From assembly GCA_043228905.1 (NCBI GenBank), contig JBHGNT010000004.1:5456001-5520000 (forward strand): a stretch of 64,000 nt of DNA. Direction: 5' to 3'. The notes below the pieces were generated by a model. The model had not been told where the DNA came from, made no database searches, and saw only the letters and a program-made list of their open reading frames with translations. Made by a program: the position numbers and the translations under genes. Shown piece by piece: positions 24,709 through 62,343 of this stretch. The stretch's first letter is position 1, and the number at the start of each line of letters is the position of its first letter. This DNA comes from Azolla caroliniana. Lineage: Eukaryota > Plantae > Polypodiophyta.

Positions 24709-26307
24709 GTGTCGTCGGCAAAGGCTCCTCGAAGCGCAATGAAGGCATTCCGGGAGTTCGATCTCCGGTTTTCCCAACTTTCGGTTCGGGATCAAGAATC
24801 AGTGGGGGCGGACAAGGTCCCACTATTCTTGAAGTCGGTCAACGAAAGGGGGAGAATGACCATTTTTCCCTACCTCGAAGACAATGAAGGGGCGTACGGC
24901 CTCACTGAAGATTGGAACGAGGTGGAATGGGTGTGCATACAATGCGATGAGAAGTGGTCGGCCACAACGCGGCCCGCGAGCGGCGGAGAAGAGAGAGCGG
25001 CGACCGACTACGCACTACCGCCGGAAGAGAGCTCCACGCAAATCGGTTCGGAGGAGCTCGACATCGAAGCCTTGGTGCGGGAAGCGTACGAGTTCGTAGA
25101 GGCACAAATCGAAGCCGAAGAAGGGCTTATTGCGGAGTTGGGCCCGAGCGGATCGGAGGATGAGGAGGCCGAAAGAGAATGGTACATCGGTACCATGGGA
25201 GAGGGTGCGGAGCGAGCCACCCTCTCGACATGCAGAGAAAGATCGACCGAGGACGAGGTCGGGGACGGTGAGGCGGCGATCGCCGATTCGAGCGGACATG
25301 AGGGAGTTCGGGAACGGAGGCCCGAAACATCGAGCGGGGAGAAGACGGGCGGTGGTGCCGCGATCTTACGCACACCGGGCCTAGAGACTCCGGCAACCGG
25401 CCCAAGAGCCAGTGTGAGACCTAGAGTGACGGGCGGTGGCGGCGGCAAGGCGGGCGACCACGATGGTGACATGGGAGAGGGTGCGGAAAGAGCGACCCTC
25501 TCATCTTGCGGCGAATGGACGGCCATGGAGGCCGGTAACTACGGATTCGGGACATGGCGGCCCGAAACATTGAGGGAGGAGGAGACAAGCGGCGGTGCCG
25601 CGACCTTACACACACCGGTCCTAGAGAATCCGGCATCCAGCCCGAGAGCCGGTGTGAGACCTAGAGTGACGGACGATGGCAACGGCAAGGCGGGCAACCG
25701 AGACAATGGTAAGGAGACCGTGGAAGAGGAGGCGACAAGCATAATTGATGCTTGCATATACGGAGGCGGGGTAGCCATGGACGACGATGTCCGAATGGAG
25801 GTGGCTACGGGCATAGCATCGACGAGCGGCGGCGTTGCTACCTTACACGCACCAGTTCAAGAGACCCCGGCGGCCGGCCCGAGTGCCCGCGTGAGACCTA
25901 GGGTAATGAACGGTGGCGGCGGCAAGGCGGGCGACCACGGCGACGATGTGGGAGAGGGTGCGGAGCGAGTGACCCTCTCGACTTGTGGAAAGAGGACGGC
26001 CATGGATGAGGCCGATATCTACGGAGCAATGAACGCCACTTCGAGAGTGGGCGAAAGTTTCGGGACGCGGTTGCCCGAAACGTTCTACGAGGATTTCGCG
26101 AGCATACTCGAGGCTTGCGAAATTTCGGGACGCGGTTGCCCGAAACGTTCTACGAGGATTTCGCGACTTCGAGAGTGGGCGAAAGTTTCGGGACGCGGTT
26201 GCCCGAAACGTTCTACGAGGATTTCGCGAGCATACTCGAGGCTTGCGAAATTGAGGAAGAAGAGGAGACGAGCGGCGGTGCCGCGACCTTCCACACACCG
26301 GACCTAG
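24709..26307 (+). pseudogene. Partial Gag capsid-like region fused to a low-complexity repeat extension (C1)
   Basis: DKVPLFLKSV..GLTEDWNEV matches the Gag of copy C3. It is followed by repeats of GGAATLHTPVLETPATGPRAGVRPR and MGEGAERATLSTC. Confidence 0.6.
26040..26252. repeat. Recent tandem duplication/triplication within C1
   Basis: TTTCGGGACGCGGTTGCCCGAAACGTTCTACGAGGATTTCGCGA occurs three times, identically. Confidence 0.9.
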
Positions 26308-29300
26308 AGACTCCGGCAACCGGCCCGAGAGCCGGTGTGAGACCTAGAGAGACGGACGGTAGCGGCGGCAAGGCGGGCAACCAAAATGACGAAGAGGAGG
26401 GTTGTAGCGGATGGAGGCGAGATCCCTCGACACCGGGGCCGGAGACTTCGGCGGTTGCGCCCGAGCGCGAACATAAGACCGGAGAGATGGGCGGTGGCCG
26501 TGAGGATGAGAGGCCCGGAGTGGGCACGTGCGAAAAGACCGAAGGAGAGGTCCGGAGCGACATCAAGGAGCGAGTCGGGAACCGACCCGACCGAAAGATG
26601 AGCCAGTCGGTAATCCGACCCGACCGGGAGGCAAAGAGGAAGAAGAGTGAAGCGGGGTCTGGTCAACCGGGCCCAAACCGAAGAAGAACCGGCAAGGCCG
26701 GATTTGCGCGGGCAAACATGTACCGGCCGATTATGATTACGGAAGGGAGCTGACCAAACCGGAACTCGATCGGCCGAGACCGATCCGGGCGAAGGCTAAG
26801 TCGGCATGATTGGAGATCGGGGAGGACGGGTCACAACACGCGACGAGAGCCGGTGAACGTATTGAGGAGGCCTGGTGGGCACGGTGATCGCGGCTTGCTA
26901 GAAGACCGAGAGCGAGAGGGACCTTCCACACCCATTCTAGAGACTTCGGCGGTTGCGGATCAACGTGAGACCGGAGAGACGGCGGGTGGCGGCGAGGAGT
27001 TGGAGGCCGAAGCGGACAAAGTTATCGGAGTGGGTATCCGGTATGAGATGATGGACGAGCGGGTCCAAGATGGCGAGCCTGGGTCGGAACGGGCTACGGT
27101 GACAAAGGATGAAGTGGCCGACGCGGAGGTCGGGTCTACGGCGGATGAAGGGCGTAACACGAAGCATGCACTACGGTCGGTGAAGGGCCCAAGAACGAGC
27201 ATGCATTCGAGAGAGCGTCAACGAGTGACCGGAAACGGTGGACCGATTGAGCCTTTGAGAGGCGAGGACTCAGTGGTGGACCGAGAGTGGGAGGAACCCT
27301 CCACACCTACCCGTGAGGCATCAACGGTCGCGGATCGAAAGGAGAACGAGGAAACGGTGCGTGGCGGCGAGGAGTTGGAGACCGACGTGGAGGTTGGGTC
27401 TACAGCGGAAGCGCGACATGAGACGCATGCAATATGGCCGGTGGAGGGCCGAGACACAAGCATTCATACGGCGGATGGGCAACAACGATTGACCGACGAT
27501 GACGGTCGGGTCAAGCCTTCGAGAGGCAAGCGCAGGACGAAGGACGGCGCGGCAAAACACCAAGACCGACGACATGGGCCGAGCGCAATCGGCATGAGCG
27601 GAGAGTCGTGTCTTGAGAACCGAAGAAGGTGCGCGGAGAGCAACGGGCTACACGCCGGGAAGAGGAAGCACGGCTTCCCGGAGGGCATGCAAGGCCAAGT
27701 GGGCCAAGAGGGCGCAAGTCGAGGCGAAGCGGTAATGAAAGCCTCAAGGGACACCGATACGGAGGTCGGGATGACAGTACGCTCTACCACAAGAGAGCAT
27801 GGCGAACAACGGGGAAAGCCTACGGAAGGCAAGCGCGGAGCGGAGAGAATCGGCACGCCGAGGTGTGCAGCACGCAAAGGGCGGAATCCGGCATGCGACC
27901 GGGAGTGCATCCGGAGGATATACGAGGCGGACAAAGGAAGAGCAACCGGGTCGGCGACAACGCTCGGGAGGACCGAACGGGGAGGAAAGTACGGGCATCT
28001 GATACGGCGGGTCGGATGTAGTCGGTGGTTCAAGGACCCACGGTGGACGTGGCGGATTGGGTGGAGGAAACGACTCGGCGAACATTGTCGAGTGTGGCGG
28101 ATCGGATGGCGCCGACGGTTCGAGACCATTCGGCGAGGATGGTGGACCAGAAGGCGACGGTGGTTCGTGTGGACGGGGTGGTCTTGCTCGAAGTGGAGGA
28201 CAAAACCGGGCGGGCCCACGAGGGCGCTAAGGACTCGGCTGGTCGTCGTGGCCGAAAATCTCGTGTTCTCTCCCCTATGTTTTGGCACATACCGGTGGAT
28301 GTGCGGTTAGGTGGGGGCGGATGTCGTGAAGATTTTCGTCCACGAGCAGAAACCCGAGCAACGAGAGCCAAAGAGCGATGTGCAACGTTGCACACGTACA
28401 TAATGTATTTGTAATAATAATAGGGGAAAAGGGTAAGGTATAAAGGCGATGCGGTCTTGTGCGCACATCCATGCGAGAGAGAGAGAGAGAGGTCCTATGC
28501 GGTACATAGGTACCTAGTTGTTTGTGAGGAGGTGGGAGTTAAGGGGCCATCAATCTCACCCTCCCCCAAATCAAGGCAAATATCCCCTTTGAATGAAAGG
28601 GGATATTTTAGTCTCGTTTTTGTAAACGGTCTTCCCCTCCTTGTGCTATAAAAGGAGAGGGAAGGCACCATTGTGAGGGTTGCCTATTTTGAGTGTGCGA
28701 GGTATACCACATAGGTCGAGCGTTAGGGTTAGGGTTTCGAGTAGTCGTTTGGTGCGGCCTATGCGGCCACCATTTTGTAATCGTTCATTTCGTTTTAATA
28801 CATCTGGTTGTTCATCTTGTCTCCATCTTCCTCTTGTTCATTCTTCTTCTTCTTGAGCAAAGCTTCCATTCCGTGTCCGATTCCTTCTCCTCTACTCCTT
28901 AGTCCAAGACCCCCGTGGTCCCGCCCTTCTCCACGCATGCGCATAGCAACACGACAACGTCAACTCCGAAGCAAATCAACAGTACTACATGACATTATTA
29001 GAGCAGAGTTTAGTCTACCCCTGATGTTAGTAGAAGCACTCTTTCAAATGGTAGTTTTTATTCATCGGATACATAGCCAACCACAAGATAGGATATCCCG
29101 TCGAGCCTTTGAGGCATCCCGATCCCTACATGCATATGGAGACACTAGCTCTTGGTATAGCATTGTGGTGAGTTGGTTACTTGCAAATAGTGTAGACATT
29201 AATAACCTACCTCCCCTTAAGTACAACCATGGGACTGATCAAACTCTAATCTCTCATGAAGACCGTAATAAAGTGATATGCTAAGAAATATGGCAAATTT

Positions 29301-30215
29301 ACACTCGATATAAATGGATCACCCCACAAGAGCCACTCCCATCTAAAATGTTGTACTATAAGGAACATTTCTTGCACTTCTCTAAGTTAGGTTTTATTAC
29401 ACGACCAACATATCTAGATACATTCTTATCAAATGCACTAAGGGTGGCCATTGGACAACTTAGGATATCATCTCACCAACTTGAGATTGAGAATGGTCAA
29501 GCTAATAGAGTCCCTAGAGAGGAAAGGCTATGCAGGTTATGCCACATAGAGGTAGAGGATGAGTATCACTTCACATGCAAGTGCCCAACTTATGCCGAGA
29601 TACGGGCGAAATACCAAGAAATATTAGGACCCTCTCCCACCCTCTCCAAACTATTAGATACCCTGAGTGTAAAAAGACTAGGTAGGTATATCTTAGAGCT
29701 AAAAAAACATAGGGAGAATAAATTACAAAGTGTTAATCATAACCCTTTTACTATTCATCAACATGTAACTAGTGTAATTTTTCAGGAACAAGGGGAGACG
29801 ATGAATGTGGATACACTTACGCCGCTCGGCCTCTCCCTTGAGGAAGCAGAAATACAAACAACAACCAAACGCCCTCGGATGTTGGACTTCAAAACAAGTC
29901 GATGTGGAGCAGAAAATATTAAGAAGATAAGGGAACATGAGCTACGTCGACTAGAAGCTATGGTTGGGGTACCTTTTACATTGGGACCACGGGCCACATC
30001 CACATCGCAGCCCTTTAACCTCCCACTTCTCTTCGAGAGACTTGGATGGAAATGAAATTAGGCCTAGTATAACATCTTTTCATTGTAGAACATGTTTTTT
30101 TTAGAACTATTTTTTATCTTATTTTGATTTTTTACTTTCGATGAATGGGTTAATATCCCATTTTTTGTAAACCATTTGTCTCATGGGCCAAATTTGGCCT
30201 TAGAAGACATTAATA

Positions 30216-30248
<33 letters not shown>

Positions 30249-30391
30249 CTCTCTCTCTCATTCACTCTCTCCTTCTCTCGAGAGTTCTACACCTCCCTTA
30301 GTACTAATCCTCATCTTTTAGTACTAATTCCTTCTCTGTTTTAGCACTGTTCCTGACAATACTTCTCTGTCTTAGTATTGCTCTTGACAGT

Positions 30392-30403
30392 TTGAACCGA
30401 TTT
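30392..30403 (+). promoter_or_regulatory. Self-priming (Tf1-type) primer-binding site
   Basis: Lies 2 nt after the LTR end (30389). It is not a TGG tRNA PBS and is complementary to the LTR R-region start. Confidence 0.75.
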
Positions 30404-30485: not shown

Positions 30486-31628
30486 ATGGCCACTGTTAGC
30501 GCTCAAGAATATCAATCCGTTTTCTCAGAGCTGCAATGCTTGAAAGAGAAATTCCTTGCTTTGGAACAAGAAAATCAACGGTTGTTTGGGGATCTTCAAC
30601 AAATCTCCTTAGAAAAACAATAGACACAACAACAACATGGGGAACTAGTGGTACGCGTGCAACAACTCGAAGCAACCTTAGTAGCGATGCAACAACAAGG
30701 ACCCAATACGCAAGGGATTCATAAAGAACCCAAGATCAGCCTTCCCATGAAATTCAATGGAACACGATCGCAGTTTAGAGGATTCCTTAATCAGGTACGA
30801 TTATTCATTCAAATGCATCCTTCTCGATATCCCACCGATGCATCACGAGTGGGACTAGTAGGCACCCTACTTAGTGGCTCAACGTTGGCATGGTTCGCTC
30901 CATTGTTAGAAAAGGAATCTCCATTACTAAACAATTTTGAAGAATTTATAAGTGAGTTTAAAGCCTGTTTTGGAGATATTGACAGCATAAGAACTGTAAT
31001 CAACAAAATCCGGCGATTATGCCAAGGTGATCGTCCAGCTTCCGTATACGCTGTAGATTTCCGCATACTCGCCGCCAATATCCCTTGGGATGATCAAGCA
31101 TTGATGGAGCAATTTCCTTATGGTTTACGCAACGATGTCAAGGATTTACTCTTGACCTTCCTTGAAGAACCAAAGTCATTAACAGAAGCAATCAGTCGCG
31201 CAGTGAGATGCGACAACCGTCTTTTCGAACGATGTTCGGAACGGCAATTCCAGAGGCCAAGGGCAAGATCGTGGTCCACCTACACCTCAGTGGTAGCGAA
31301 ACCTTTTCCGAGGGAGTCATATAATGCATCTCCAACAAATACTCCGACTCCAATGGAAATCGACATCACACGTCGTCGCGGACCACTATCGGAAGAAGAA
31401 AAGCAGCAACGCAGGGCAAATCGACTATGTCTGTATTGCGGGGGACCGGGGCATATTGCAGTGAACTGTCCCCATCGGCCAAAAAGGCAAGTAAATGAAA
31501 TAACCACTAATACTAATAGTACTAAAACCGAGTCTATTTCTCTAGGTGTGTCCGATAGTCCTAATAGCCCGATCCTTTCAAACAAATTTGAAATCCTTAG
31601 TCAACTAGAAGAAGAGTTAAACGATTAA
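30486..31628 (+). pseudogene. Gag of the Tcn1-like element (in-frame stops near the N-terminus)
   Basis: EPKISLPMKFNGTRSQFRGFLNQ, PTPMEID and a CLYCGGPGHIAVNC zinc knuckle. Confidence 0.88.
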
Positions 31629-34250
31629 GTCTAGCCAAAATAGGAGTTGTTTGGTTGGACAACCTAAATCTGTGCAGCCCATTAGTGGTTCCATTTCTTC
31701 TAAGCAAGTTAGCAATGTGTTCTTAGCTCAAGTAATGGTTAGTACTAAAAGTACTCCTCCAGTACATGTCTTAGCACTCTTAGATTCCGGAGCCAACTCT
31801 TGCTTCATGGATAAGAATTTTGCCCAAGCTCATCAGATATCCCTAAGAAAACTCTCGTGTCCAGCCTCTGTAGTAGTCATTGTTGGTCGTCCCATCGCTT
31901 CCGGAAATATCATAGAAGAGTTAGAGCCCGTTAATATTGTCCTAGATAACTTAGCGTGTGTAATATCATTTAATATAATTAGTATCCCAGAACATCCCAT
32001 TGTTTTGGGATTACCATGGTTCGAATTACATAACCCAGACATAGATTAGAGAACAAGAGAAATACGGGGTCGACAAACCCGACGATCTACTCATAAGATT
32101 ACAACCATTTCGCTACATCAGTTGTGTGAGGAAGGACGCAAGGAAGAAATGTTTCTCTTTGCAATATCAGTAAAACCCTCCAGCACCACTAAAGAGGAGT
32201 CCACCATTCAACTTCTAGAGAAGTATCGTCATTATGCCGATGTGTTCGATAAAGTATGAGCTAATACGCTTCCTCACAATCGACCGTATGATTGCCCCAT
32301 CGATTTACAACCGGGAAAAGAGCCACCATGGGGACCAATCTACAATTTGTCACCAACCGAGCTAGAAGTCCTTCGAGCCTATATAGAGGAGAATTTGGAA
32401 AATGGTTTCATTCGACTTTCGAAATCTCCAGCCAGCGCACCCATTTTCTTCGTCAAGAAAAAGGATGGATCACTTTGTCTCATCGTAGATTACCGTGGGT
32501 TGAATAAAATCACCATCAGGAATAGGTATGCACTCCCCCTTATCTCAATCTTTTAGAACAGATCAATGGTGCAAGGTTAGTCACAAAGATCGACTTACGA
32601 GGAGCATATAACCTCGTACGGATCCGACCAGGAGATGAATGGAAGACTGCGTTTCGCACTAGATATGGTCACTTCGAGTATACGGTCATGCCATTCGGCC
32701 TCACTAATGCGGCAACAGTCTTCCAACACATGACAAGTGATATATTCCGAGATCTCTTGGACAATTTTTTGATCATCTATTTGGATGACCTACTGGTTTA
32801 TTCGAAGACCCAAGAAGAGCATGATTCTCATGTACTATTAGTACTAAAACGACTTCGAGAACATGGTCTTTATGCAAAACTAGAAAAATGTAGTTTCGGG
32901 TGCAACCAGGTAGAATTTTTGGGCTATGTCATTTCCTCGGAAGGCATCTCCATAGATCCAGCTAAGGTCAAAATGGTGGTAGAGTGGCAGACTCTGCGTT
33001 CGTTGTGAGATGTGCAATGTTTTTTAGGCTTTGCCAATTCCTACCGCAAGTTCATACAGGATTACTCAAAGCTTGTTCTACCTCTCACACAACTTACCAG
33101 GAAGGGAAAATCATTCGTTTGGTCTGAAGAAGCGGACTTTGCTTTTGAGAGTCTTAAGAAGGCATTTACATCAGCTCCTATTTTAGCGCATGTTGATCCA
33201 GAAAAACCATTCATCATTGAAGCAGACGCGTCAAATTTCGCCTTGGGTATCATTCTGTCTCAACAAGGCGATGATGAAAAGCTACATCCTATGGCTTTCC
33301 ATTCACTCAAGTTTGACGCCGTGGAAATCAACTATGAAATTCATGATAATGAGCTATTAGCAATAGTGGACTCTTTTACTCAATGGAGGCATTTTCTAGA
33401 GGGGTCTTCTCATCAAGTCATCGTATTCAGTGATCACAAAAACCTTGCCTACTTTCAGAATGCTCGTGTGTTAAATCGACGTCAAGCTCGGTGGGCCCAA
33501 TTCCTCACTCGTTTCGACTTCAAAATTACATATCGTCCGGAGAAGCAACAAGGGAAGGCAGATGCATTATCACGACATTCGTATGTAGCACCGCATCCCG
33601 GCGAGCTGGCTTTCGATAACCAAAAGCAAGTAATCTTGGGTCCGACATGACTGCAAGCAGCACAGGTCTTCGGTATGCCCTTGGATTCCCACGTTATCGA
33701 TACCATACGTGAGGACTTGAAGACAGATGTTTTCGCTCAAGCCATTCTAACACAAATTGATCCCTCTCGAGCATCTTGTTCATAGTCGCAACAACCAGGT
33801 ACGGACTATCGACAATTCGAATGTCATGATGGATTACTATTCCTTAAAAAACTCTTGTATGTTCCTAATGGTACTTGTTACCTTCAAGTAGTCCAAAACT
33901 GTGATGACACATATACAACTGGGCATTTTGGTAGTACTAAAACACTAGATTTAGTACAACGATCATTCTGGTGGCCCCATATGCGACAAGTTGCCGAAGA
34001 TTTTGTTCAGACTTGTGATACATGTTGCAGAGCAAAAATTCCAAGGCATCATCCATATGGTTTATTAGAACCATTACCAATTCCAAGCAAGCCATGGCAA
34101 TCCATTGCCCTAGATTTCATCACAGATCTTCCAGTCTCTAAGGGATTCGATGCAATCTTAACAGTAGTAGATCGATATACGAAGATGGCCCATTTCCTAC
34201 TACTGTTAAGGAAATCTCCAGTGAAGAAACCGCCGAAATTGTCATGCGTG
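31629..34250 (+). pseudogene. Pol of the Tcn1-like element (PR, RT, RNase H, N-terminal integrase), disrupted
   Basis: [56 protein letters not shown] and IALDFITDLP. Confidence 0.92.
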
Positions 34251-35989
34251 AAGAAAGAAAGAAAGAAATATATATTAACATCTTCTAAGGCCAAAATTGG
34301 CCCATGAGACAGTTGGTTTACAACAAAAACGAGTGTTTATCCAATCATCAAAACTAAAATAAAAGAAAATAGCTTCAGCTAAAAGAGTTCTAGTAGTGTA
34401 CAAAACTTTGAACTAAGCCTAATTTCATTTCCACCCAAGTCTCTAAAAAAGAAGTGGGAGGTCAAAGGTTTTTGGTGTGGGTGTGACCCATGGTCCCGGT
34501 GTACAGAGTGCCCCCACCATGGCTTCTAGGCGGTGTAGCTCACGTTCCCTTTTTTTCTTTATTGCTTCGACATCTCGTCGGGTTGCTTTGAAACCTGACA
34601 TCCGAGGGCGTTTGGTTCTTCTTTGATATTTTGCTTCATCAAGGAAAAGCCCGAGTGGTGCAAGTGTGTCGACATTCATTGTCTCCCCATGTTCTTGAAC
34701 AACTTCATTTGTTACATGTTGGTAAACATTAGCAACATTATTATCAATGTTTTGTAACTTATTCTCTCCATGTTGTTTCAATTCTAAGATGTATCTGCCT
34801 AATTTCTTTATATCTAGTGTATCTAAAAGTTTAGGGAGGGTGGGAGAGGAACCAAGTATGTCTTGGTATTTTGCCCTTATCTCGGCATAGGTGGGACATT
34901 TGCATGTAAAATGGTACTCATCCTCTCTCTCTATGTGGCATAACGTCCATTCTCAATCTCAAGTCGGTGAGATGATATTCTAAGTTGACCAATGGCAACC
35001 CTTAGTGCATGTGGTAAGAATACATCTAGATATCTTGGCCGCGCAATAAAACCTAACTTAGAGAAGTGCATGAAGTGTTCCTTATAGTACAACATTTTAG
35101 ATGGGAGTGGCTCTAGTGGGGTGATCCATGTATATCGAGTATAAATTTGCCATATTTCTTGGCGTATTACTTTATTACGGTCTTCATGAGAGATTAAAGT
35201 CTGATCAATCGTGTGGTCGTACTTAAGGGGGGGGAGGTTATTAATATCTAGACCATTCGCAAGAAGCCAACTCACCATCATGCCATACCATGAGCTAGTA
35301 TAGTCGGACTCATACAGTGCTCGAGAAGCCTTAAAGGCTTGATGGGATATTCTATCAAGTGGTTGGTTATGTATCCTATGGATAAAGACTACAAGTTGAA
35401 AAAGTGCTTCTACTAACATCGGGGGTAGAGCGAACTCAGCCCTAATAATGTCATGTGGGACCGACGATTTGCTTCGGAGTTGGCGTGATAACATCATCAC
35501 CAATGGTCTCTCTAATTGCGTCCACATGAAAGATGGTAGTCCTGGAGCCCAAACCGTTGATGCATACATGAGAGAGGGAGTCACTAATGAGTCAAAGAGC
35601 CACCCTTTAGTTTGTGTCTCCTGGAAGTATGCTTGATGGCATTGTCTCTCGAGGATTGAGAGGGATGCATGTCCTCTCGTAAGTCTATCCTTCGTTGCTT
35701 GTGTCATCGAAAATTTACCTGAGCGGGCATTGAAAGTAACTCCGAGATAGACAGATGATCCAACCACCTCAACTGGGCTATGGGAGATAGTTAGGTGACA
35801 CTTAGCTCTAACTTGGGCCGACGTGTGGAAGATAAGGACTTTAGTTTTCCCTAGATTCACTACCAATCCTCGTTGTATGCAAAAGTCATCGAAGGCATTG
35901 TGCCTTTGTAGGTCATGCTCAGATTTAGAGAGCAAAACTATGTCGTCTGCATAAAGCAGGATACGCACTTGCGTATCCCCAAGGACTAC
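34251..35989 (-). mobile_element. RTE-X-like LINE, copy 3, inserted in the integrase
   Basis: Close relative of copy 1 (ORF 34931-35968 LLYADDIVLL...). Has a (CTTT)n tail at 34251-34268 and is 5'-truncated. Confidence 0.92.
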
Positions 35990-36280
35990 CCCATGTGTTT
36001 CATAGTTCTCTCCTCGAACCCTATCAAGACAGCACCTTCCCAGGTCGTATTAAACAACCTCTATTCCTAATCAAGCTTGAAGATGGACCTGAGTACGAGA
36101 TTGCCGCCATCCTCGATTCCAAGATTGTTCGCAACAAGCTCTACTATTTAGTCGATTGGCTAGGATATAGTCCCAACGAGTATACTTGGGAACCAATAGA
36201 GAAAGTGACCAATGGTCGTGCTCTTTTTGAAGACTTCCATCTTCAATATCCAGACAAACCGGGTCCTCAATCCAAAACGA
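35990..36280 (+). pseudogene. Integrase C-terminus and chromodomain of the Tcn1-like element
   Basis: HVFHSSLLEPY ... EYEIAAILDSKIVRNKLYYLVDWLGYSPNEYTWEP. Confidence 0.9.
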
Positions 36281-36585
36281 CGGGGGATAGTGTCATGATA
36301 TGGCAAGACTCGAACCCATGACCTTATGTTACATGGGTCCAGCTCTTGACCATTGGACTATATGTTGTAATACAAAAAATATTGTTTTCATTTAAGTTTT
36401 ACTATAGAAAATTGATGTATATTCTAGATTTTTCTGGAACATTCTAGAAACTTCAGGAGTACTCTTGAGAACACTATAAAAGGAGGCACAAGGCATTATT
36501 TCGAACCAAATTGGTTCAACGCCAATCTTAAGCCTCCTAGCTACTATTGTATATTCCCTTAACATAATATATATATTTTGTTATC

Positions 36586-36642
<57 letters not shown>

Positions 36643-36646
<4 letters not shown>

Positions 36647-51602: not shown

Positions 51603-54600
51603 TCTAGACGATGACAGAGCGAATGGGCTTACGGAGGACTGGTTGAAGGTCGGAAGGGTGTGCCAACGGCTAGACAACGAGCGAGCCGAGAAGGCTAAGA
51701 GGAAGGTACGTGACGGCGTGCCATCACAACGGGAAGAGGCCGAACGGCAGAGAGAGTCGGCAAGGTTCGGCGTTGGGGCCAAGATTGCGGAGGCGTACGC
51801 AGCTCTCGAGGCGATGCTCGAGGAGGAGGAAAGACGGAGGCCGCAAGCCGAGACTGAGAAGACGGACTTGCCCCACGCGACGGCGGAAGATCGGTACGAC
51901 GGTACCACGAGAGAGGGTGCGGAACGAAACGCCCTCTCGACTTGCGGAGAAAAAACGGCCAAGGACGAGGCCGAGATATAGATCGCGGAACCGGAACGTT
52001 GGGACCAGCGGTTTCGGGCTTGTCAGACCGAGATCCCGGTCATTGGAGAAGCAAGCCGAGACGGGGCTTGCGCGATCGGTAAGAAGACGACCGCCGACCA
52101 CGAAGAGTCGGTGGCTACGGACAAGGGCATAAAACGGACGGGCGATTCTTTGTGTCTTCCCACACTTGCTCCCGGGACGATGGCAATCGGGCCCGAGTGC
52201 CCACGTGAGTCCCAAGCGGAGGAAGGCGGCGGCGAAAGGCCGAAAATCATCGGCGAGACGATACGGGGAAGGAGCGGATGAAAGACCACGGACCCAATTC
52301 CGGAGAACTCGGCATTCGGGCCCGTATGCCCATGTAAGACCGAGGAGATGGATGGCGGTACCGAGGAGTGTTGGCACGATGCCAACGAAGATGGATGGGA
52401 AACGGCCTGTGAGGAGGCCGAGGACGGAAGCGGCACGAGGAGATCGGCATTCCGATACGGGTGGAGCGTGATCCGGTCGTGGATTGTTCGATCGGGGCCG
52501 GATTCAGCATGAAAGTGCCGAAACAGAAGAGGGTGCGGGACGAGCCGCCCTCTTTTACATGGGGAGAAAGACCGATCGGGCGAAGGTCGAGAGTTGGAAG
52601 GAGAATGAAAGCCGGTCGTATGGAGTTCCTTACACTGATCCAGCTGCCGGCCCGAGTGCCGGCGTGAGTCCTATAAGATAGATCGGTGGCGACAGGAGAA
52701 CGGGACTTGGCGATACGGAGAATGACGAACGGACCCGAGCGAGAATCGGGCGGAGCGGACTCCCGGATGACCATTCCGGGAGGGAGGAAGAGAGCTGGCC
52801 TATGAAGAGGCCGAGGACACGGTACGTCGGTACCACGGGAGAGGGTGCGGAACAAAATGCCCTCTCGGCATGCGGAAAAGGACGACCCGGGACAGGGTCG
52901 GGAATACAAATCGGAGGCCCACGGAGGATCCTTCACACCGGTTCTAGAGACTTCGGCAATCGGCAACGCGGTCGATGTAAGACCAAGATACTGACGGTGG
53001 CGGCGAGGTGACGAAGGCAAAGGGGCTACGGATGGGCGGTCTACGGAGGATCCTTCACACCGGTTCTAGAGACTTCGGCAGTCGGCAACACGGTCGACAT
53101 AAGACCAAGATACTGACGGTGGCGGCGAGGTGACGAAGGCAAGGGCGTAAGGAAGTCCGGTCCTATGGGATCCCCACACTTAACCAGAGACTCCGGCAGT
53201 TCGGCCAACGTGGCAACATGAGACCGAGAGAGAAGGTTGGTGGCGTCGGGAAACGGGACCCGACTACGCGGAAGACACGAGGAGAGTCCGGGAGGGACTC
53301 AAACAAAAGACACCCGAATTTCGGCAAGCATAGAAACGGAGTCCGTTCCTATGGGACCCTCACACCGATCTGGAGACCCTGGCAGTCGGCAACGCGGTCG
53401 ACGTAAGACCAAGATACGGACGGTGGCGACAGGGAACGGGACCCGACGACACGAGGTTTCAAAAGGAGCCGGTAGGGGCAAACACGGGGAGGTGTGTCAG
53501 GCTGGAAAGGCACACCTGGGACAGAACAAGAGTCTCGCAAGTGGCCATCGCGGGCCGGATTGAAGCATGACTACGGGACGGTGTTCAGTGCGGGCGGGGC
53601 CGAACGAAGGAAGTGGAAGACGGCACAAGGGAGGTGCTGGGAACGAGGTGACAAGTGCCTAGTGGACTGCACAGGGTCGGGGTCAGGGGATGGCAAGAGA
53701 GGCCGGAGGAGGATCCTCCACACTCGCTTCGTAGATCTCGGTAGCTCCGTCGAAGTAGCGAAGACTGACACAACAAGCCAAGATGACAAGCTGGTGGGGC
53801 CGAGGGGACGACGGCAAACGGAAGACTCAGGACCTATTGCAGCAGCACGAAGATGGGAAGGGCCATGCGGGCTACTACGGGGTGCTCCTCGGATGCAAAG
53901 GACACCAGTATGCGAGGAGCGGCGATGCACGATCTGGCCGGAAAAGGGGCCGACAAGGCGTGCAATGAACCGGAGTACGATACAGGTAGTGCCAAACAAC
54001 GGACGAGGGTATGTGGCACACGGAGGTGCCGGAGCGGAAAGGCGAGTGTGGAGATAGGTTGCGCGGTTCGGAGGTAGCGCAGAGAAGGCCGGAAAGGGAT
54101 CCTCCACACTATTCCGGAGACCATGGCGGTTCGAGCCGACGCGGTGATGTAAGACCATGGAGAAGGAAGGCGGCGGCGAAAGGACGAGGGCAACGCGAAA
54201 CGACATGGGACGACAATCAGGACGACGCGAATGATCAACGGAGGCCAAGCGGGCCGCTACGGGCGTTCCTCAAACGGAGGACATTGGGCATACGGCGGGA
54301 AGCGGGGCGTTCATACGGCTGAACAAGGGCCAGCGGAAGTACGCGTACTACGGAGATTGCGGCAGAGGACCCATCGACGGGTCGAACGAGCCTACGGGGA
54401 GGTAAGCGCGAAGGAAGAATCGAAGCTGACGGATCAAACTGGCAGCGAGCCGGGATGCGGATCACGGAAGATCGGTTTCTCACCGGCCGAAACCTCTCAC
54501 CCTTCAACCGGACTTGGCACATACCGGTGGATGTGCAGTTAGGTGGGGTCGGATGTCGTGAAGAATTTTGGCCAGAGGCGGAAACCGGGAAACATTGGCT

Positions 54601-55302
54601 ACATCGGCGGGGTGCAGCGTGTGTACGCAACCATGTACATTTAGTGTGAATATCGAGGGCGCCTTTATGGCGCCAAAGAGTAGTCAAGTCGGGGCAGACG
54701 ATCCCATGTAAGGCGGCATTTGTCCCACATTGTAACGCATCCCTTTCCTTGTTCTATAAAAGGAAGGGAACGCCCTTTGTGAAGGTGTTGCCCATTTTGC
54801 ATTAGAGGGTATACCGTTAGGTTTAGAGTTAGTTTCTTCTTCTTCTCCCCCCTTCATGTTCGCTTAGGGTTGGCTGCAGCTCATCTCCTGTGCAAGACCC
54901 CGCTCGGCGCGACGAGCCCGAGAGCTCCCCGACGGCGGCTTGACAGCAGACGACTGTTGTAAGCTATCTTGGTCCGGCTCGAAGCCGGGAATGTATTCTT
55001 CTTATATATATATATACGTTTGCGTCTATCTATGTATACTCGCGTCTATGTTGGTGTCGGGTGTTTCCCCCCTTCCTGCGTTTCCTGTACATAAGGGCGT
55101 GAGGCGGGTCTGTGTGTGTGTGTGTGTGAGTGTGTGTGCGTGAGTCGGTGTTAATCTCTCTCTCTCTCTCCCTTCGGTTGCTTCCGGTGTGCTTCTGGGA
55201 TGCCCGAAAACGGTGAAGCACGTTTTCCTATGCTCCGTCACTCCCTAGTCCAAGACCCCCGTGGTCCCGCCTTTCTCCACGCACACGCGTAACAACGCGA
55301 CA
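51603..55302 (+). mobile_element. Non-autonomous GC-rich LTR retrotransposon, copy C2 (5' part deleted)
   Basis: Begins mid-gag (DDRANGLTEDW) and is colinear with C3. PPT GGTGGGGTCGGA, 3' LTR at 54554-55302. Confidence 0.88.
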
Positions 55303-56142
55303 GCGGTGACAAGCGCCAACGACAACGGCACCTACCATCTCGCGGAGCTCGATGGAACGAGAATAGTTGTGCCGGTGGCCGGGAAGAGGATCAAGGCATT
55401 CAAGAAGCGGCACGAGGACAAACCAGACCCAGAAGGCATGGGTAGCGATGATGACCGGTTCGGAGTGGGTAGCGAACCGGAGAGCTAAAGATAATTGTGG
55501 GCCGGTCTTCTCCAGCAGAAGTCTATTCTGGCGCATATCGGAGGATGCGCAGTTTGGTGGGGGCGGATGTCGTGGAGAAAACTGTGTGCGTGAACCGACC
55601 CTTACACACGGGCACATGTTTTGATATATTTACATAGTTAAGTATAGGTCGACGATGTCATTATCCTAGGTAGCACGAATTCACTAGGTAGGGAATTAAA
55701 GAGGATTTCTGTCCGAAAGGACAGAGAATAAAAGTGATGTAACAAGTTTGTAACGACTCTCCCTCGTGCTATAAAAGGAGAGGAAAAGGGGTTGAGTGGG
55801 GATCGCGCATTTGGAGGACGAATTGTTGTCGGACTGGGAACTGAGCTCTCTCCTCCACTATTGTTGTTGCTTCTACAGGGATTTTGGGTTGGGTTGGTTG
55901 CCTCTGCTACATGAAAGCCCGAGAGCTTCTGGTAGAGGCTCCATTTCTGTGTTGAGTCTCTCACTGACTTGCCGGTTGTAACATCGCAAGCTTTGTAATC
56001 TACACTGTTATTGGAATTGATTCTTTCATTTCTGTCTCTCTGTGTTTCTGCAAATCTCTCTCCCTCTTCTCTCTCACGCTCCTCGGTTCAGGGCCGTTGT
56101 AGTCCTGCCTTATTTCATACACAAGAGCGTAACAACACGACA
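55303..56142 (+). mobile_element. 3' end of pol-bearing gypsy element D, related to family C
   Basis: Integrase C-terminal-like NDNGTYHLAELDGTRIVVPVAGKRIKAF. Same PPT (TGGTGGGGGCGGA) and LTR termini TGTCGTG...CACGACA (LTR 55568-56142). Confidence 0.8.
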
Positions 56143-56232
56143 ACGTTACTTTGTAACCTTCATTGATGATTTCACTCAGCACACATGGGTATGCACGATC
56201 GCGAAGAAGAGCGAAGTCTTCGCATTCTTCAA
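56143..56232 (+). mobile_element. Ty1/copia integrase fragment
   Basis: RYFVTFIDDFTQHTWVCTIAKKSEVFAFFK. Confidence 0.75.
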
Positions 56233-56956: not shown

Positions 56957-57546
56957 TGTCGTGAAGATTTCGGGCCATGGTGCGAAACCGGGGAAAATCG
57001 GGAGAATCAGCGGAGTGCACCGTGTGCACTTACCCTTGTAAAAATGTGTGAATAATAGGAGTTAAATCGGGACAGAGAATCCCATGTAAATCGGGATTTA
57101 TCCCACATTGTAACGCATCCCTCTCCTTGTTCTATAAAAGGAAGGGATGGTCCCTTGTAGAAGGGTTGCCCATTTTGAGTTAGGAGGGTATACCGTTAGA
57201 TTTAGGGTTAAGTAGTTTCTTTCTTCTTCTTCTTCTTCTTCTTCATCGTCGTCGTTGTTGTCGTCGTGTGGGGTGAGAGTTCATGTCTGTTTAGGGTTTG
57301 CTTCTGCTCGGTCGCCTGTGCAAGACCCCGCTCGGTGCGACAAGCCCGAGAGCTCCCTGTTCAGCGGCTTGGCAGCAAACTGTCATTGCAACCTACCCTA
57401 CCTTGGTCCGGCTCGAAGCCGGGGTTGTATCTCTTTCATTGTAATGTATACATATATGTTAGGTTGTGCACATCTGCGTTTCTGATGGTGTCAGGTGTTT
57501 CTGCCCCTTTTGTTTTCTGCACATAAGAGTCGGTGTTGCGCGCAAC

Positions 57547-57588
<42 letters not shown>

Positions 57589-60500
57589 CTCTCTCTCGTA
57601 TTCGGATGCCTCCGGGATGTGTCCAAAGTCGGTTTCTCGGCACTCCTTTCTCCCTAGTCCAAGACCCCCGTGGTCCCGTCCCTTCTACACGCACGCACGT
57701 AATAACGCGACATCTTTGGTGAACCCGACGTGAAGGGCAGAAAGGGAGAATGGAGTTGGAAGAAGATGACTTCGCACAACTTTTTGTCGAAGTGATGAGG
57801 GAGTTTGGACGAACAACAACGACAAGAGAGACGGCGCAACAAGCTATTGAGCGAGTGGTCGAAAGAGTTAGTTGTTTCAACGGGGACAAAGTCCTATTCT
57901 ACTTGGAAGCATACAACGTGGAAATGGAGGAGCGAGACGTAGACGAGGCATTGAGGTTGGAGTTCTTCTGTCAGGTCGTCGTCGTCTATATGCACGCGGA
58001 AGTGAAGGAGCTCCGAGGAGCTCATAGTTCGTGGGAGGCCTTCGAAGGGGCACTCCTGCAGGCATATGGAGGACGTCGGAAGAGCCGGGGACGACGTGGC
58101 TTCGACTAGTGGGTTGCATCCGTGAAGACCCATCGGGGCGCAACGAAGGCGTTCTGAAAGTTCGAGCGACGGCTTGCTTGGCTCCTAGAACGGGAGCAAG
58201 GTTTGGTGGGGGAGGACAAAGTCCTGTTGTTCGTTAGGTCAATCGACAGAGCGGAACGGGAGGCCATCGGGATTGAGCTCAAAGACGATGACGGAGCGAA
58301 TGGCCTTACGGAGGACTGGTCGAAGGTTGGAAGGGTATGCCAATGGCTAGATGACGAGCAAGCCGAGGAGGCTAAAAGGAAGGCACGCGATAGCGTGCCA
58401 TCATAGCGGGAAGAGGCCGAACGGCAAAGAGAGTCGGCAAGGCTCGACTTTGGGGCATGGATTGCGGAGGCGTACGCAGCTCTCGAGGCCATGCTCGAGG
58501 AAGAGGAAAGATCGAGGCCAGAAGGCGACGCCAAGGAGACGGACATGCCCCACAAGATGGCAAAGATCGGTACAACGGTACCATGGGAGAGGGTGCGGAA
58601 CAAAATGCCCTCTCGGATTGCGGAGATAGAATGGCCGAGGACAAGGCCGAGATACCGATCGCAAAATCGGAACGTTGGGACCGACGATTTCGGGCACGAC
58701 AGCCCGAGGCTCCGGACATTGGAGAAGCAAGCCCAAGCGGGGTTTCGGCGATCTATAAAGGGATGACCACCGACCATGAGGAGCCGGTGGCTACGGACAA
58801 GGGCGTAAAACGGACAGGCGATGCTTCACGTCTTTGCACACTTGCTCCTGAGACGATGGCAGTCGGGCCCGAGTGCCCACGTGAGTCCCAAGAGGAGGAA
58901 GGCAATGGCGTGAGACCGAGAATCACCGACGAGACGATACGGGGAAGGAACAAACAACAGCCCTCGGAACCGATTCCGGAGAACTTGGCATTTGGGCCTT
59001 TACGCCCACATGAGACCGAGGAGATGGATGACGGTATCGAGGAGTCCTGGAACGATGCCAACGAAGAAGGATGGGAGATGGCCTGCGAGAAGGTTGACGA
59101 AGATACCAGGGACCGAACCGCGTTGCGCTCCGATTCGGGTGGAGCGCGATCTGGTCATGGATTGTTTGACCAGGGCCAGAATCGGCATGAAGGTGCTGAC
59201 ACAGGAGAGGGTGCGGAACGAGCCGCCCTCTTTTACATGGGGAGAAAGACTGACTGGGCGAAGGTCGGGAATAGAAAGGAAGGTGATGATGGGTTCAGAA
59301 CGAGTCCGGTAGGATCGGCATCAGAGCCAAAACTCCGGACATTGGAGAATCAAGCCCAGGCGGGGCTTGATTGATCACATAGCGGATGCTATCCACCGAC
59401 ACCATTAAAAGGGTTGATGGTCTGGATGAGTCGTCGGGAGTCGTTACGAGAACGGCGTCCCCACATTTTTACCAGAGACTTCGGTAGTATGGTCGGCGTG
59501 GCAACGTGAGACCGAAAGAGATGGAAGATGGGGGCAGGAGCACAGAAAGGAGAGCAATGGCGAGTTTGGGAGAAGTACAAGGGACGAAGCGGAGAACGAA
59601 GACCGGTCCTATGGGTCACCTCACACCGGATCAAGGGACTTCGGCGGTCGGCATCGGATCCGACGTAAGACCAAGATACTGACAGTGGCGACAGGAGAAC
59701 GAAACCCGACAATCTAGAGAATGACGGACGGACATGGACGGGAACCGGGCGGGAACCGAGCGGGGCGGACATCCGAATAACCGATCCGGAAGAGGGGAGA
59801 GAACAGGCCTACGAAGAGGCCGAGAACACGGTATGTCGGTACCACAGGAGAGGGTGTGGAGGGAGCCACCCTCTTGACTTGCGGACAAAGACGACCCGAG
59901 ACAAGGGTCAGAGATACAGCAAGCCCAAGGAGGATCCTTCACACCAGTTCTAGAGACTCCAACTATCGGCCCGAGAGCTAGCGTGAGACCTAGAGTAACG
60001 AACGGTGGCGGCAAGGGGACAAAGGCAAAGGACTGAGGGTGGGCGGTCTGCGGAGATCCTCACACTGATCCAGCGGTCGGCCCGAGTGACGGCGTGAGTC
60101 CTATAGGAGAGATCGGTAGCGGCAGGTGAACGTGACCATCCGAAGAGGCCGATGTGGAGGTCGGGAAGACGGGAAGTGGTGCTGTAGTGACCTTACACAC
60201 TCCGGTAGCTGGCAACGAGGGCCGACGTGAGACCAAGAGGGAAGAACGGTGGTGGCGGCAAGGTGGGCAACTGAGACGGCAAAGGGGGGAGGTTCCACGG
60301 AGATCCTCACACCGATCCGGCAGTCGGCCCGAGAGCCGACATGAGTCCTATAGGAAAGGACGGTGGCGGCAAGAGAACGTGATCGAATGACGGGAAGCAG
60401 AACGAAAGGAGGTATGAGGCCGGCGAGGCGGCCACGAACCGGATGCGGGCCCGACCGGCAGGGTCAGCAAGACAAAGATCAGACGCACTTGGTACGAGAG

Positions 60501-62343
60501 TCGATGACCCAACAAATCAGAGGCCCGAGAAGGATCCTTCACACCTACCCGGAGACCCCGGTTGTTCGGCCGACGTGGCAACGTCAGACCGAGGGTAATG
60601 GAAGGTGGCGGCAAGGGGACGAAGGCAGCAACAATAGAAGTGCCGACCAACCAAAGCGTTATGTGAACGAAGGAGGCCATGCGGGCCGGTACATGGCAAG
60701 GGTGATCTCCCGGTAAGCTATCGGGGACACCTGGTTAAAGAGCGGTGTGCCGAGTTGGAAAGGGCACACCCGAAAGTGGAATGGAAGACGTGTGTATGGC
60801 CATCAAGGGCCAAGCAAAGCACATGTATGGAACAATGTTCGGTACAGATGCTACCGGACAAGGAGGGCGGAAGACGACACACGACGGTGCCGGGAACGAA
60901 AACACGTGCGCGCATAAACGGACTACGCGGGATGTAGATCGGAAACAAGATTGAGGGCCGGAGAAGGACCCTCCACTCCCACTTCGGAGATCTCGGCGGC
61001 TCAGAAGGAGTGGCAACGACTGACGTGGCATGCCAAACCCGAGATAACAAGTTGGTGGGGGCGAGGGGATGACGGCAAGCGGAAGGCTCAAAACCGGTGG
61101 CAGAATCGCAAGATGAAAGTGGCCAAGTGGGCTACTACGAGGTGTTCCTCGGCTGCGGAGGACAAAAGTATGCAGAGAAGTGGCAATGCACAATCTGGCA
61201 GGGCGAGGGCCGACGACGCGTGCATAGGACGAAACCGGGGTTCGGCATGGGCGGAGCCGAACAAGGGAAGGGAAATGCGCAACACGTGGAGGTGCCGGAG
61301 CGGGAACACCGGCACGGAGATAGGTTGCCAGTTCAGGTGATCTTGCGTAGAAGGCCGGAGAGGGATCCTCCACACTGGTTCTGGAGATCTTGGCAGTTCG
61401 CCCGCGGCAACGTAAGACCAAGGAGAAGGTAGGTGGTGGTGAGGGGACCAAGGCGATGGAGATCAGAGTGGAACGAGAACCAGGACGACGCGAAGGTCGA
61501 CAGAGGCCAAGCGGGCCATCACAAGTGCTCCTCGGACGGAGGACACCACATATTCAAAGGGATGAGAATCGTGCATATGGTCGAAGGAAGGGCCAACATG
61601 AAGCATGTGCACTACGGGATCGTGGCGAATGACCTATCGACGGGTCGAACCATCGTACGGAGAGGCAAACACGAAGAAGGAACCAGAGCTGGAATGCGGA
61701 TTATGGAAGAACGGTTCCTCACCGGCCGGAATCTCTCACACTTCTCCGAGCTTGGCATGTACCGGTGGACGTGCGGTTTGGTGGGGGCGGATGTTGTGAA
61801 GATTTCGGGCCATGGTGCGAAACCGGGGAAAATCGGGAGAATCAACGAAGTGCACTGTGTGCACTTACCCTTGTAAAAACGAGTGAATAATAGGATTTAA
61901 GTCGGGACAGAGAATCCCATGTAAATCGTGATTTATCCCACATTGTAACGCATCCCTCTCCTTGTTCTATAAAAGGAAGGGATGGTCCCTTGTAGAAGGG
62001 TTGCCCATTTTGAGTTAGGAGGGTATACCGTTAGATTTAGGGTTAAGTGGTTTCTTTCTTCTTCGTCTTCTTCTTCGTCGTTGTTGTCGTCATGTCGGGT
62101 GAGAGTTCATGTCTGTTTAGGGTTTGCTTCTGCTCAATCGCTTGTGCAAGACCCCGCTCGGCGCGACGAGCCCCAGAGCTCCCATTGCAACCTACCCTAC
62201 CTTGGTCCGGCTCGAAGCCGGGGTTGTATCTCTTTCATTGTAATGTATACATATATGTTAGGTTGTGCACATCCGCGTCTCTGATGGTGTCGGGTGTTTC
62301 TGCCCCTTTTGTTTTCTGCACATAAGAGTCAATGTTGTGCACA

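What the first reader, a model, noticed from the sequence alone, without database searches (positions are those of the whole stretch)
25365..61420. About 25 copies of a covarying three-way-junction RNA motif inside the pol-less LTR elements
Seen: a ~55-nt unit C(T/A)CAC-A-[P2]-CN-[P3]-GT(G/A)AG(A/T)CC recurs at ~25370, 25610, 25845, 26290, 26430, 26925 (C1); 52160, 52290, 52630, 52930, 53050, 53170, 53360, 54105 (C2); and 58835, 58970, 59460, 59620, 59935, 60058, 60192, 60305, 60537, 61368 (C3). The P3 arms covary around a 6-nt loop: ACCGGC/GCCGGT (26319-26336), ATCGGC/GTCGAT (52959-52976), GTCGGC/GCCGAC (60323-60340), GCCGGC/GCCGGC (52646-52663). Shorter or longer-loop forms also still pair: GTTG/CAAC (26952-26964) and GTCGG/CCGAC (59647-59664). 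P2 covaries (CCG-atc-CGG at 60312 versus CTG-atc-CAG at 52635) and tolerates length changes. In the gag frame these changes swap amino acids (T/I/V/A with G/D), so pairing rather than protein seems conserved. Some copies have mismatches. Inference: a multiplied cis-acting RNA module, such as a packaging or dimerisation signal for competing for helper particles, or an unknown ribozyme (by analogy with retrozymes). I do not recognise the motif.
Basis: partly seen in the sequence, partly recalled or inferred. Interest (0 to 1): 0.85.

Follow-up and report, generated by a model that had tools for sequence, protein, structure and literature searches.

The report
Multiplied RNA rod in fern retrotransposons
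Three polymerase-less jumping genes in a likely fern genome carry 27 copies of a roughly 90-base sequence whose two halves change together so as to stay paired, predicting an undescribed rod-shaped RNA fold (not the proposed three-way junction) that likely serves as a repeated protein-docking signal, perhaps for getting packaged by a helper element.

Summary
The repeat is real: 27 copies, all on the sense strand, all inside three pol-less, gag-only LTR elements with Phygy hallmarks. The host is likely a fern.

The proposed three-way junction is wrong. P1 shows no compensatory change, P2 is not significant, and only P3 holds. The module is an ~85-90-nt nested rod: four helices separated by purine-rich bulges, with a near-invariant GURAGW strand.

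An unsupervised, tree-aware search finds this rod with 15.7 same-branch double changes against a null maximum of 8-13 (120 simulations). The result survives a methylation-context null and includes transversions. Synonymous sites in the motifs are conserved (16 of 19 against 114 of 258), and the motif persists in different reading frames and in non-coding copies, so protein constraint does not explain it.

Against: No Rfam match; a ribozyme is unlikely. The best guess is a multiplied Gag-recognition (packaging) signal; the main rival is a CTE-like export or stability element.

The parts
23895..28956 (+). Element C1: complete pol-less LTR element. LTRs 23895-24550 and 28322-28956, 4-bp TSD ACGT, PBS from 24555, PPT-like tract 28296-28321
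   Evidence: LTRs differ at 8 of 626 aligned bases
24595..28310 (+). C1 gag-derived frame: partly deleted capsid, long low-complexity tail holding the modules, Trp/Arg-rich end. Broken by stop codons and an internal duplication
51606..55302 (+). Element C2: 5'-truncated copy fused to a Copia RT fragment. 3' LTR 54554-55302, gag stop 52510-52512
56957..62511 (+). Element C3: complete pol-less LTR element. LTRs 56957-57712 and 61792-62511, TSD ACAT, PBS from 57717
   Evidence: LTRs differ at 51 of 720 aligned bases
57750..59190 (+). C3 gag: predicted capsid (about the first 200 aa) plus acidic tail, no zinc knuckle. Broken by stops and one frameshift
25353..25456 (+). rod module, C1-1 (model envelope)
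25593..25696 (+). rod module, C1-2
25830..25933 (+). rod module, C1-3
26276..26379 (+). rod module, C1-4
26411..26514 (+). rod module, C1-5
26909..27006 (+). rod module, C1-6 (short P3)
52143..52246 (+). rod module, C2-1 (type A, inside gag)
52272..52375 (+). rod module, C2-2 (type B, inside gag)
52613..52706 (+). rod module, C2-3 (short form, 10-nt deletion)
52916..53017 (+). rod module, C2-4
53038..53139 (+). rod module, C2-5 (122-nt tandem duplicate of C2-4)
53157..53260 (+). rod module, C2-6
53343..53443 (+). rod module, C2-7
53701..53814 (+). variant module, C2-8: lower helices kept, apical part replaced (held out)
54087..54190 (+). rod module, C2-9
58819..58922 (+). rod module, C3-1 (type A, inside gag)
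58948..59051 (+). rod module, C3-2 (type B, inside gag)
59444..59548 (+). rod module, C3-3
59604..59705 (+). rod module, C3-4
59922..60025 (+). rod module, C3-5
60043..60136 (+). rod module, C3-6 (short form)
60165..60269 (+). rod module, C3-7 (5' part altered)
60290..60383 (+). rod module, C3-8 (short form; family-wide variants read here)
60522..60625 (+). rod module, C3-9
60956..61075 (+). variant module, C3-10: lower helices kept, apical part replaced (held out)
61353..61453 (+). rod module, C3-11
25199..25226 (+). second repeated hairpin H (9-bp stem, variable loop); further C1 copies at 25475-25502 and 25952-25979
51911..51938 (+). hairpin H; further C2 copies at 52527-52554 (14 nt after the gag stop) and 52839-52866
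58587..58614 (+). hairpin H; further C3 copies at 59205-59232 (14 nt after the gag stop) and 59848-59875

Best explanation
The 27 repeats are copies of an ~85-90-nt module with covarying halves, predicted to fold on the sense transcript of pol-less, likely Phygy-derived gag-only LTR retrotransposons as a rod of four nested helices with sequence-conserved purine-rich bulges, and it likely acts as a repeated Gag-recognition signal that would get this RNA packaged into particles built with a helper element's enzymes. Shown: the repeats, their host elements, complementarity kept through compensatory change, nucleotide-level rather than protein-level constraint, spread by internal duplication, and absence of pol and of the Gag zinc knuckle. 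Inferred: that the fold forms in RNA rather than single-stranded DNA, that the GURAGW and GAGA bulges bind a protein, that the protein is Gag (helper or own), and that extra copies raise packaging success. My odds are about 0.8 that the rod is under selection and about 0.5 that packaging is the reason if so.
For: Structure: an unsupervised search for the best nested set of up to four helices returns the rod with 15.7 events; null mean 3.6, max 8 at the same threshold, max 13 at a looser one, n=120. With a CG/CHG-context-aware null and S1 left out: 10.5 against 1.55, max 5; transversion-type events 3.0 against 0.42, 1 of 150; the 24 window copies alone give 8.0 against 0.85. All four Watson-Crick types occur at one S2 pair. 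Native 5'/3' halves pair better than chimeras in 23 of 33 copies; permutation over 21 clusters gives median p 0.002. Held out: the variants at 60964 and 53709 keep the lower helices. In sister-family proteins Ser/Gly-or-Glu switches to Trp/Gln, as helix S4 requires (4 of 4 Trp copies; 17 of 20 distinct peptides compatible against 13.9 shuffled, p 0.002). Not protein: third codon positions are invariant in 16 of 19 motif columns against 114 of 258 elsewhere in the tail (p 0.0007), and the invariant A sits at codon position 1, 2 or 3 in 12, 11 and 1 of 24 copies. Family-wide, none of the four variants above 10% at one unit breaks P3. Multiplication: 24 of 34 internal self-matches include a rod, although rods cover 23% of the sequence. 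Helper dependence: no pol; no zinc knuckle in 41 close relatives (many are fragments), present in 7 of 14 distant Gags examined. The capsid is under purifying selection (identity 0.82/0.86/0.67 by codon position) and its model's ten best Foldseek hits are Arc, Ty3, Copia, PNMA2 and PEG10 capsids (E 0.12-1.4).
Against: Folding energy is no better than shuffles even for the long unit (mean z 0.12; 1 of 33 below -2). RNAalifold returns no consensus. About a quarter of cells are unpaired (75.9% paired), and S3 alone is not significant (53 of 300). G-U does not exceed A-C in the rod (S2 17/20, S4 16/35, P3 12/12) and duplex energy is as good on the minus strand, so the case for RNA rests on hairpin H (G-U 12, A-C 3) and one wobble polymorphism. 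S1 counts are inflated by register shifts in a low-complexity flank. The tree of short, recombining units is poorly resolved, and the null does not model misalignment or template switching. The Trp/Gln switch may be a single ancestral event, and two of the 20 peptides are close to the training copies. Characterised packaging and dimerisation signals lie at the 5' end (Ty1, PMC6844567 abstract), whereas these start about 1.1 kb in for C3. No helper sequence, RNA data or binding data were available.
Confidence: 0.4

Rival explanations
1. The same rod works as a CTE/RTE-like post-transcriptional element: a host factor or U1 snRNP binds the conserved bulge and promotes export or stability of an unspliced RNA with a very long 3' UTR, and more copies give more RNA.
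For: The anatomy matches: covarying stems with sequence-fixed internal loops. [quoted passage not shown] Export elements can overlap coding regions (PMC4588558 abstract). C2 and C3 have 2-2.6 kb of non-coding RNA after the gag stop.
Against: GTRAG is not enriched over shuffles in the internal regions (9-10 observed against 8.5-13.2). The invariant CC after it is explained by pairing, not by U1. Plants are thought to lack an NXF1 orthologue (recalled).
Confidence: 0.22
2. No selection on structure: an ancestrally self-complementary stretch was copied by tandem duplication, and cytosine deamination plus template switching between the arms produces the apparent covariation.
For: All P3 and S1 double changes are transitions. 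z-scores are near 0. Template switching can create and repair stems (PMC8794818 abstract). Minor family variants hit stem and loop alike at 3-6%.
Against: The signal survives a context-aware null and includes transversions. Template switching would tend to remove bulges, yet the asymmetric bulges are the most conserved part. Synonymous conservation. Identity among distant paralogues falls to 0.31-0.38 outside the module.
Confidence: 0.15
3. The rod acts on single-stranded DNA or on the template during reverse transcription (pause or strand-switch sites), which drives the shuffling of modules among subfamilies.
For: No strand preference in the rod. Contig joints fall at module edges (table 5). 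L003 is a mosaic of C3-like and C1-like parts.
Against: Such joints also arise from any repeat. The fixed loops are purine-rich on the sense strand. Hairpin H favours the sense RNA.
Confidence: 0.1
4. It is a protein repeat (TPxLETxAVxxxxxRET or VRP) in the Gag tail, and pairing is incidental.
For: Sister-family Gags carry 1-3 in-frame copies. Indels in the gag region mostly keep frame.
Against: The tail shows flat codon-position identity (0.71/0.74/0.69). Third positions, not first positions, are the conserved ones in the motifs. The motif is kept across frames and in a region where 15 of 20 gaps are single bases.
Confidence: 0.05
5. The three-way junction, or an unknown self-cleaving ribozyme.
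For: P2 arms are paired in 73% of cells against 56% in the null (5 of 300). One variant copy has a branched apex in its MFE.
Against: P1 has no compensatory events, and P2's arms are conserved because they serve S2 and S4. No Rfam match. Cleavage inside the genome would block reverse transcription (inference).
Confidence: 0.05

Closest known systems
Phygy lineage of non-chromovirus Ty3/gypsy elements (Neumann et al. 2019, PMC6317226; passages and one supplement row)
   Same: 4-bp TSD of NCGN type, PBS matching tRNA-Trp (tRNA sequence recalled), Gag related to DUF4100- and protease-bearing proteins of Physcomitrium, Riccia and Adiantum.
   Different: No pol or zinc knuckle; long repetitive tail; fern-like host. 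That paper describes Phygy as a Physcomitrella-specific clade with the polyprotein filling the internal region.
TR-GAG non-autonomous elements (as defined in passages of PMC13570524)
   Same: LTRs plus a gag frame and no enzymes.
   Different: The passages read mention no hairpin, secondary structure or packaging (0 occurrences of those terms in that paper).
Constitutive transport element and related export elements (MPMV CTE, MusD, MLV PTE; PMC4338338 passages, PMC4588558 abstract)
   Same: Stem-loop with sequence-conserved internal loops; a 5' splice-site-like sequence beside the loop.
   Different: No sequence or Rfam similarity; 7-11 dispersed copies per element; plant host; binding untested.
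Retroelement packaging and dimerisation signals (Ty1 PAL1/PAL2 and 5' pseudoknot, PMC6844567 abstract; retroviral psi, recalled)
   Same: Structured cis signal on the genomic strand of an LTR element.
   Different: Not in the 5' leader, no palindromic loops (0 of 33), multiplied.
Retrozymes (PMC4918200 abstract)
   Same: Non-autonomous plant LTR element of Ty3/gypsy type with a structured RNA motif.
   Different: Retrozymes hold one hammerhead per LTR and a non-coding 600-1000 bp middle. Here the motif is internal, not a hammerhead, and overlaps gag.

Membership tests
Phygy lineage | 4-bp TSD, NCGN | tested here: met
   C1 ACGT on both sides; C2 right flank GCGG; C3 has a 4-bp TSD ACAT that departs from NCGN by one transition
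Phygy lineage | PBS for tRNA-Trp | tested here: inconclusive
   PBS read; its match to tRNA-Trp rests on recall, and no tRNA sequence was fetched
Phygy lineage | Gag homology to Phygy-type Gag (DUF4100, protease) | tested here: met
   profile hits at E 1e-16 to 1e-25 carry DUF4100 (6 of 18 scanned), one from Physcomitrium
Phygy lineage | placement by RT/RH/INT phylogeny | not testable with these tools
   the elements have no pol
TR-GAG | LTRs, PBS, PPT and gag frame without RT, RH or INT | tested here: met
   (capsid-like fold; Foldseek E above 0.001)
Three-way junction as proposed | covariation in P1, P2 and P3 | tested here: not met
   P1 none, P2 not significant, P3 yes
Retrozyme | hammerhead ribozyme in each LTR | tested here: not met
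   no Rfam hit at gathering; one CTGANGA in C1 gag, none in LTRs or units
Known self-cleaving ribozymes | match to an Rfam ribozyme model | tested here: not met
   best is a Hammerhead_1 hit at E 3.9 outside any unit
Known self-cleaving ribozymes | self-cleavage activity | not testable with these tools
   needs an in vitro assay
Kissing-loop dimerisation signal | self-complementary terminal loop | tested here: not met
   0 of 33
Packaging signal | selective Gag binding and packaging | not testable with these tools
   no binding data; helper not available
CTE-like export element | rod with sequence-conserved internal loops | tested here: met
   A68, G69, C71 and C72 invariant in 33 of 33, U66 in 32 of 33, while stems covary
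CTE-like export element | export-factor binding and export activity | not testable with these tools
   needs a reporter assay
Kink-turn | 3-nt bulge followed by tandem G-A/A-G pairs | tested here: inconclusive
   by eye the GAGA/AGA loop has one or two nucleotides too many; consensus recalled

The most novel reading that the evidence does not exclude
A parasite-private lock and key. These gag-only elements replaced the zinc-knuckle nucleocapsid with a tail ending in a Trp/Arg-rich segment and wrote many copies of its cognate RNA rod into their own gag tail and 3' UTR. Their capsid co-assembles with helper Gag-Pol while their own RNA is selected in cis, so copy number of the rod is a tunable competitive weapon against the helper.
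Probability: 0.15. Interest if true: 0.82.

Novelty: new variant of a known kind. Interest (0 to 1): 0.58.

Why it matters
How plant LTR retrotransposon RNA is chosen for packaging, and how non-autonomous elements win helper machinery, is little studied: two six-term literature searches returned 1 and 3 papers, none on plant elements. A compact, covariation-defined module that occurs in natural dosage series (1-3 copies in sister-family Gag frames, 7-11 per element here) makes both questions testable by copy-number and compensatory-mutation experiments. It also shows an RNA fold shaping amino-acid pairs inside a Gag tail. If the role is only neutral repetition, the value drops to annotation of a high-copy fern TR-GAG family.

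Tried and rejected
No whole genome is held for this window, so there is no genome-wide alignment.

Rfam: no hit at gathering and only chance hits by E-value; in L001, L003 and L006 only two tRNAs and one weak snoRNA hit. ARAGORN found nothing in the window.

Pfam names no family for the elements' own frames. A shallow-alignment fold was poor and matched nothing. A PDB sequence-profile search gave 0 hits. Comparing the Gag profile with the window's chromovirus-type Gag gave no match. The ESM Atlas gave no usable hit for the tail.

No relatives were found in viral contigs or prokaryote genomes, and the motif pattern had 0 hits in viral contigs. The sequencing-run search listed no RNA holder; this is no evidence either way.

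P3 alone is only marginal after correcting for helix choice (3-4 of 150) and would lose significance if one event is a tree artefact. The pairwise indel tally over-split gaps and was replaced. A comparison of unit 3' ends with the PBS was out of register and is not used; a PBS-mimic idea was dropped because the GGCAAC and GCCCAC types lack the match. A third candidate hairpin K (11 copies, mean z -1.4, no alifold consensus) is unproven.

Literature: ten searches listed no description of this module. Most listed papers were seen only as listings, and the library lacks most subscription journals. The original TR-GAG paper was not read, and supplements were searched only for PMC6317226.
Full report
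Setting. The window is plant DNA; its ANKRD13 exon is closest among named proteins to Adiantum (78%) and Ceratopteris (74%), so the host is likely a fern. It holds three related pol-less LTR elements. C1 (23895-28956) and C3 (56957-62511) are complete, with TG..CA ends, 4-bp target duplications (ACGT, ACAT), a PBS and a purine-rich tract; C2 (51606-55302) is 5'-truncated. C1's LTRs differ at 8 of 626 aligned bases and C3's at 51 of 720. Neumann et al. list 4-bp NCGN duplications and tRNA-Trp priming for Phygy (PMC6317226, passages and one supplement row); that the PBS here matches tRNA-Trp is from recall. A profile of the N-terminal region finds 560 relatives, among them DUF4100- and protease-bearing Gags from Physcomitrium, Riccia and Adiantum. 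A model of relative P0003 (pLDDT 90.7) has Arc, Ty3, Copia, PNMA2 and PEG10 capsids as its ten best hits, all above E 0.001. The Cys/His knuckle is seen in 7 of 14 distant Gags examined and in none of 41 close relatives, many of which are fragments. The family is abundant: 18,205 contigs of one run lie on C3's internal region (contig counts are not copy number).

Observation. The units exist as stated. A covariance model counts 27 in the window, all on the sense strand and all inside C1-C3, and 10 more in L001, L003 and L006. I aligned 33 for statistics (24 window, 9 loci) and left out three degenerate or variant window copies and one truncated locus copy.

On a structure-blind alignment P1 has no pair with a change on both sides. 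I used a null that reassigns each branch's real substitutions along a tree. Same-branch double changes were 0 for P1, 1.0 against 0.43 for P2, and 4.5 against 0.57 for P3. P3 alone is marginal once helix choice is corrected for. The 55-nt units have mean folding z -0.04, weaker than neighbouring sequence (-0.62, 116 windows), and RNAalifold gives no structure.

The fold that fits. From outside in it has: S1 (CCTY with RAGG-like arms); S2 (CACCN with NGGTG); a weak S3; a purine-rich GAGA/AGA loop; S4, ending in GG paired with the invariant CC; an asymmetric loop or bulge series YR opposite GURAGW; P3; and a variable 2-6-nt loop. In the short form the 'CCG-atc-CGG' arm pairs instead with downstream GATCGG or GACGG. 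Because I chose the rod after looking, I ran an unsupervised search for the best chain of up to four nested helices on real and simulated alignments. It returned S1, S2, S4 and P3 with 15.7 events, against a null mean of 3.6 (max 8) at the same threshold and a max of 13 at a looser one, n=120. Leaving out S1, whose count is inflated by register shifts, and placing simulated substitutions by CG/CHG context gives 10.5 against 1.55 (max 5). Transversion-type events are 3.0 against 0.42, and the 24 window copies alone give 8.0 against 0.85. The pair counter gives 76 cells with change on both sides against 33 shuffled. Native halves pair better than chimeras in 23 of 33 copies (median permutation p 0.002 over 21 clusters). 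Copies not used to derive the helices keep the lower stems. In proteins of a sister family (about 40% identical to the C3-type Gag) a Ser-to-Trp change on the 5' side of S4 always goes with Gln on the 3' side, as the pairing requires (4 of 4, possibly one ancestral event). At unit 60300 four family-wide variants exceed 10%: one in the junction, one in the loop, one that turns U-A into U-G, and one where the family has G at the start of GURAG; nine minor variants are deamination-type at about 3-6% (only positions 60318-60341 were listed).

Against the rod. The long units also have z near 0 (mean 0.12), RNAalifold fails again, a quarter of cells are unpaired, S3 is not significant, and G-U does not exceed A-C in the rod. 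The null does not cover misalignment, recombination among units, or template switching, which can repair stems without selection (PMC8794818, abstract).

Protein or nucleotide. Across five elements the capsid shows codon periodicity (0.82/0.86/0.67) but the tail does not (0.71/0.74/0.69). Within the motifs third positions are invariant in 16 of 19 columns against 114 of 258 (p 0.0007; rod parts alone 11 of 14, p 0.012). The conserved 3' strand is read as VRP in 12 copies, as RET/RES-like in 11 and otherwise in 1. In the 3' region of C2 and C3, 15 of 20 alignment gaps are single bases. The frame is kept open in gag, but the constraint on the module is at the nucleotide level.

Multiplication. 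Of 34 internal self-matches, 24 include a rod, 6 only hairpin H and 4 neither; rods cover 23% of the internal sequence. Identity among distant paralogues drops to 0.31-0.38 outside the module.

Mechanism. Covarying stems that hold sequence-fixed purine-rich bulges are the usual anatomy of a protein-binding RNA element (established knowledge). An element with a conserved capsid but no enzymes and no zinc knuckle must get its RNA into helper-containing particles, and more docking sites would pay in that contest (inference). I therefore commit to a multiplied Gag-recognition signal at 0.4. The main rival is a CTE-like export or stability element (0.22): the GURAG strand resembles a splice donor, as reported beside a CTE loop (PMC4338338, passages), but GTRAG is not enriched overall. 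Self-cleavage is unlikely because cuts between PBS and PPT would destroy the template, and retrozymes keep their hammerheads in the LTRs (PMC4918200, abstract). Dimerisation by kissing loops fails on 0 of 33 palindromic loops.

Novelty. There is no Rfam family and no description in ten literature searches (listed under Tried and rejected). Unchecked notes of this scan report hairpin arrays in retroelements of other genomes; they are leads and not support, and none matched this sequence. Verdict: a real, likely undescribed RNA module in a TR-GAG-like, Phygy-derived family; a new variant of a known kind, with its function inferred. Interest 0.58.

Noticed in passing
window 59205-59232 and 52527-52554; L003 ~529-556; L006 ~1701-1728: A copy of hairpin H begins about 14 nt after the gag stop codon in all four elements that cover the spot. 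The layout recalls stop-codon readthrough or RNA-stability signals (recalled); untested.
   Followed up: partly
window 49500-55302: C2 is a chimera: a Copia LTR, Met-type PBS, gag and RT fragment run straight into the Phygy-type gag at 51606 and end in the Phygy-type 3' LTR.
   Followed up: partly
window 55303-56145: Element D is only a 61-codon piece resembling a gypsy integrase C-terminus (by recall; no Pfam hit) plus PPT and one LTR with the same ends and an ACGT flank. It is a candidate helper remnant; no module in it.
   Followed up: partly
L001 28-2040: A solo LTR and a full element of this family each sit next to a tRNA gene in a tandem array (tRNAs at 744-815 and 1046-1117, minus strand). 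This could be targeting or duplication of one insertion.
   Followed up: no
window ~28000-28310; C-termini of P0031, P0198, P0200-P0203: The long frame ends in a conserved Trp/Arg-rich segment (WWIGWRxWFxWKxW-like). The C3-type Gag ends in a shorter aromatic/basic segment. A possible RNA- or membrane-binding module.
   Followed up: partly
window 25299-25339, 25539-25579, 26052-26220, 52005-52045, 58681-58721: Third repeated inverted motif K (TTCGGG..CCCGAA-like) with a variable loop; 11 copies with loci, weak support (mean z -1.4).
   Followed up: partly
window 10219-12039 (minus strand): Large exon of a host ANKRD13-family gene, used to place the host among ferns.
   Followed up: yes
window 14833-16684, 23311-23893 with 28957-30068, and 34252-36049 (minus): Several copies of a LINE-like RT element; C1 is inserted in one of them. 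A chromovirus-type gypsy lies at about 30600-36600.
   Followed up: no
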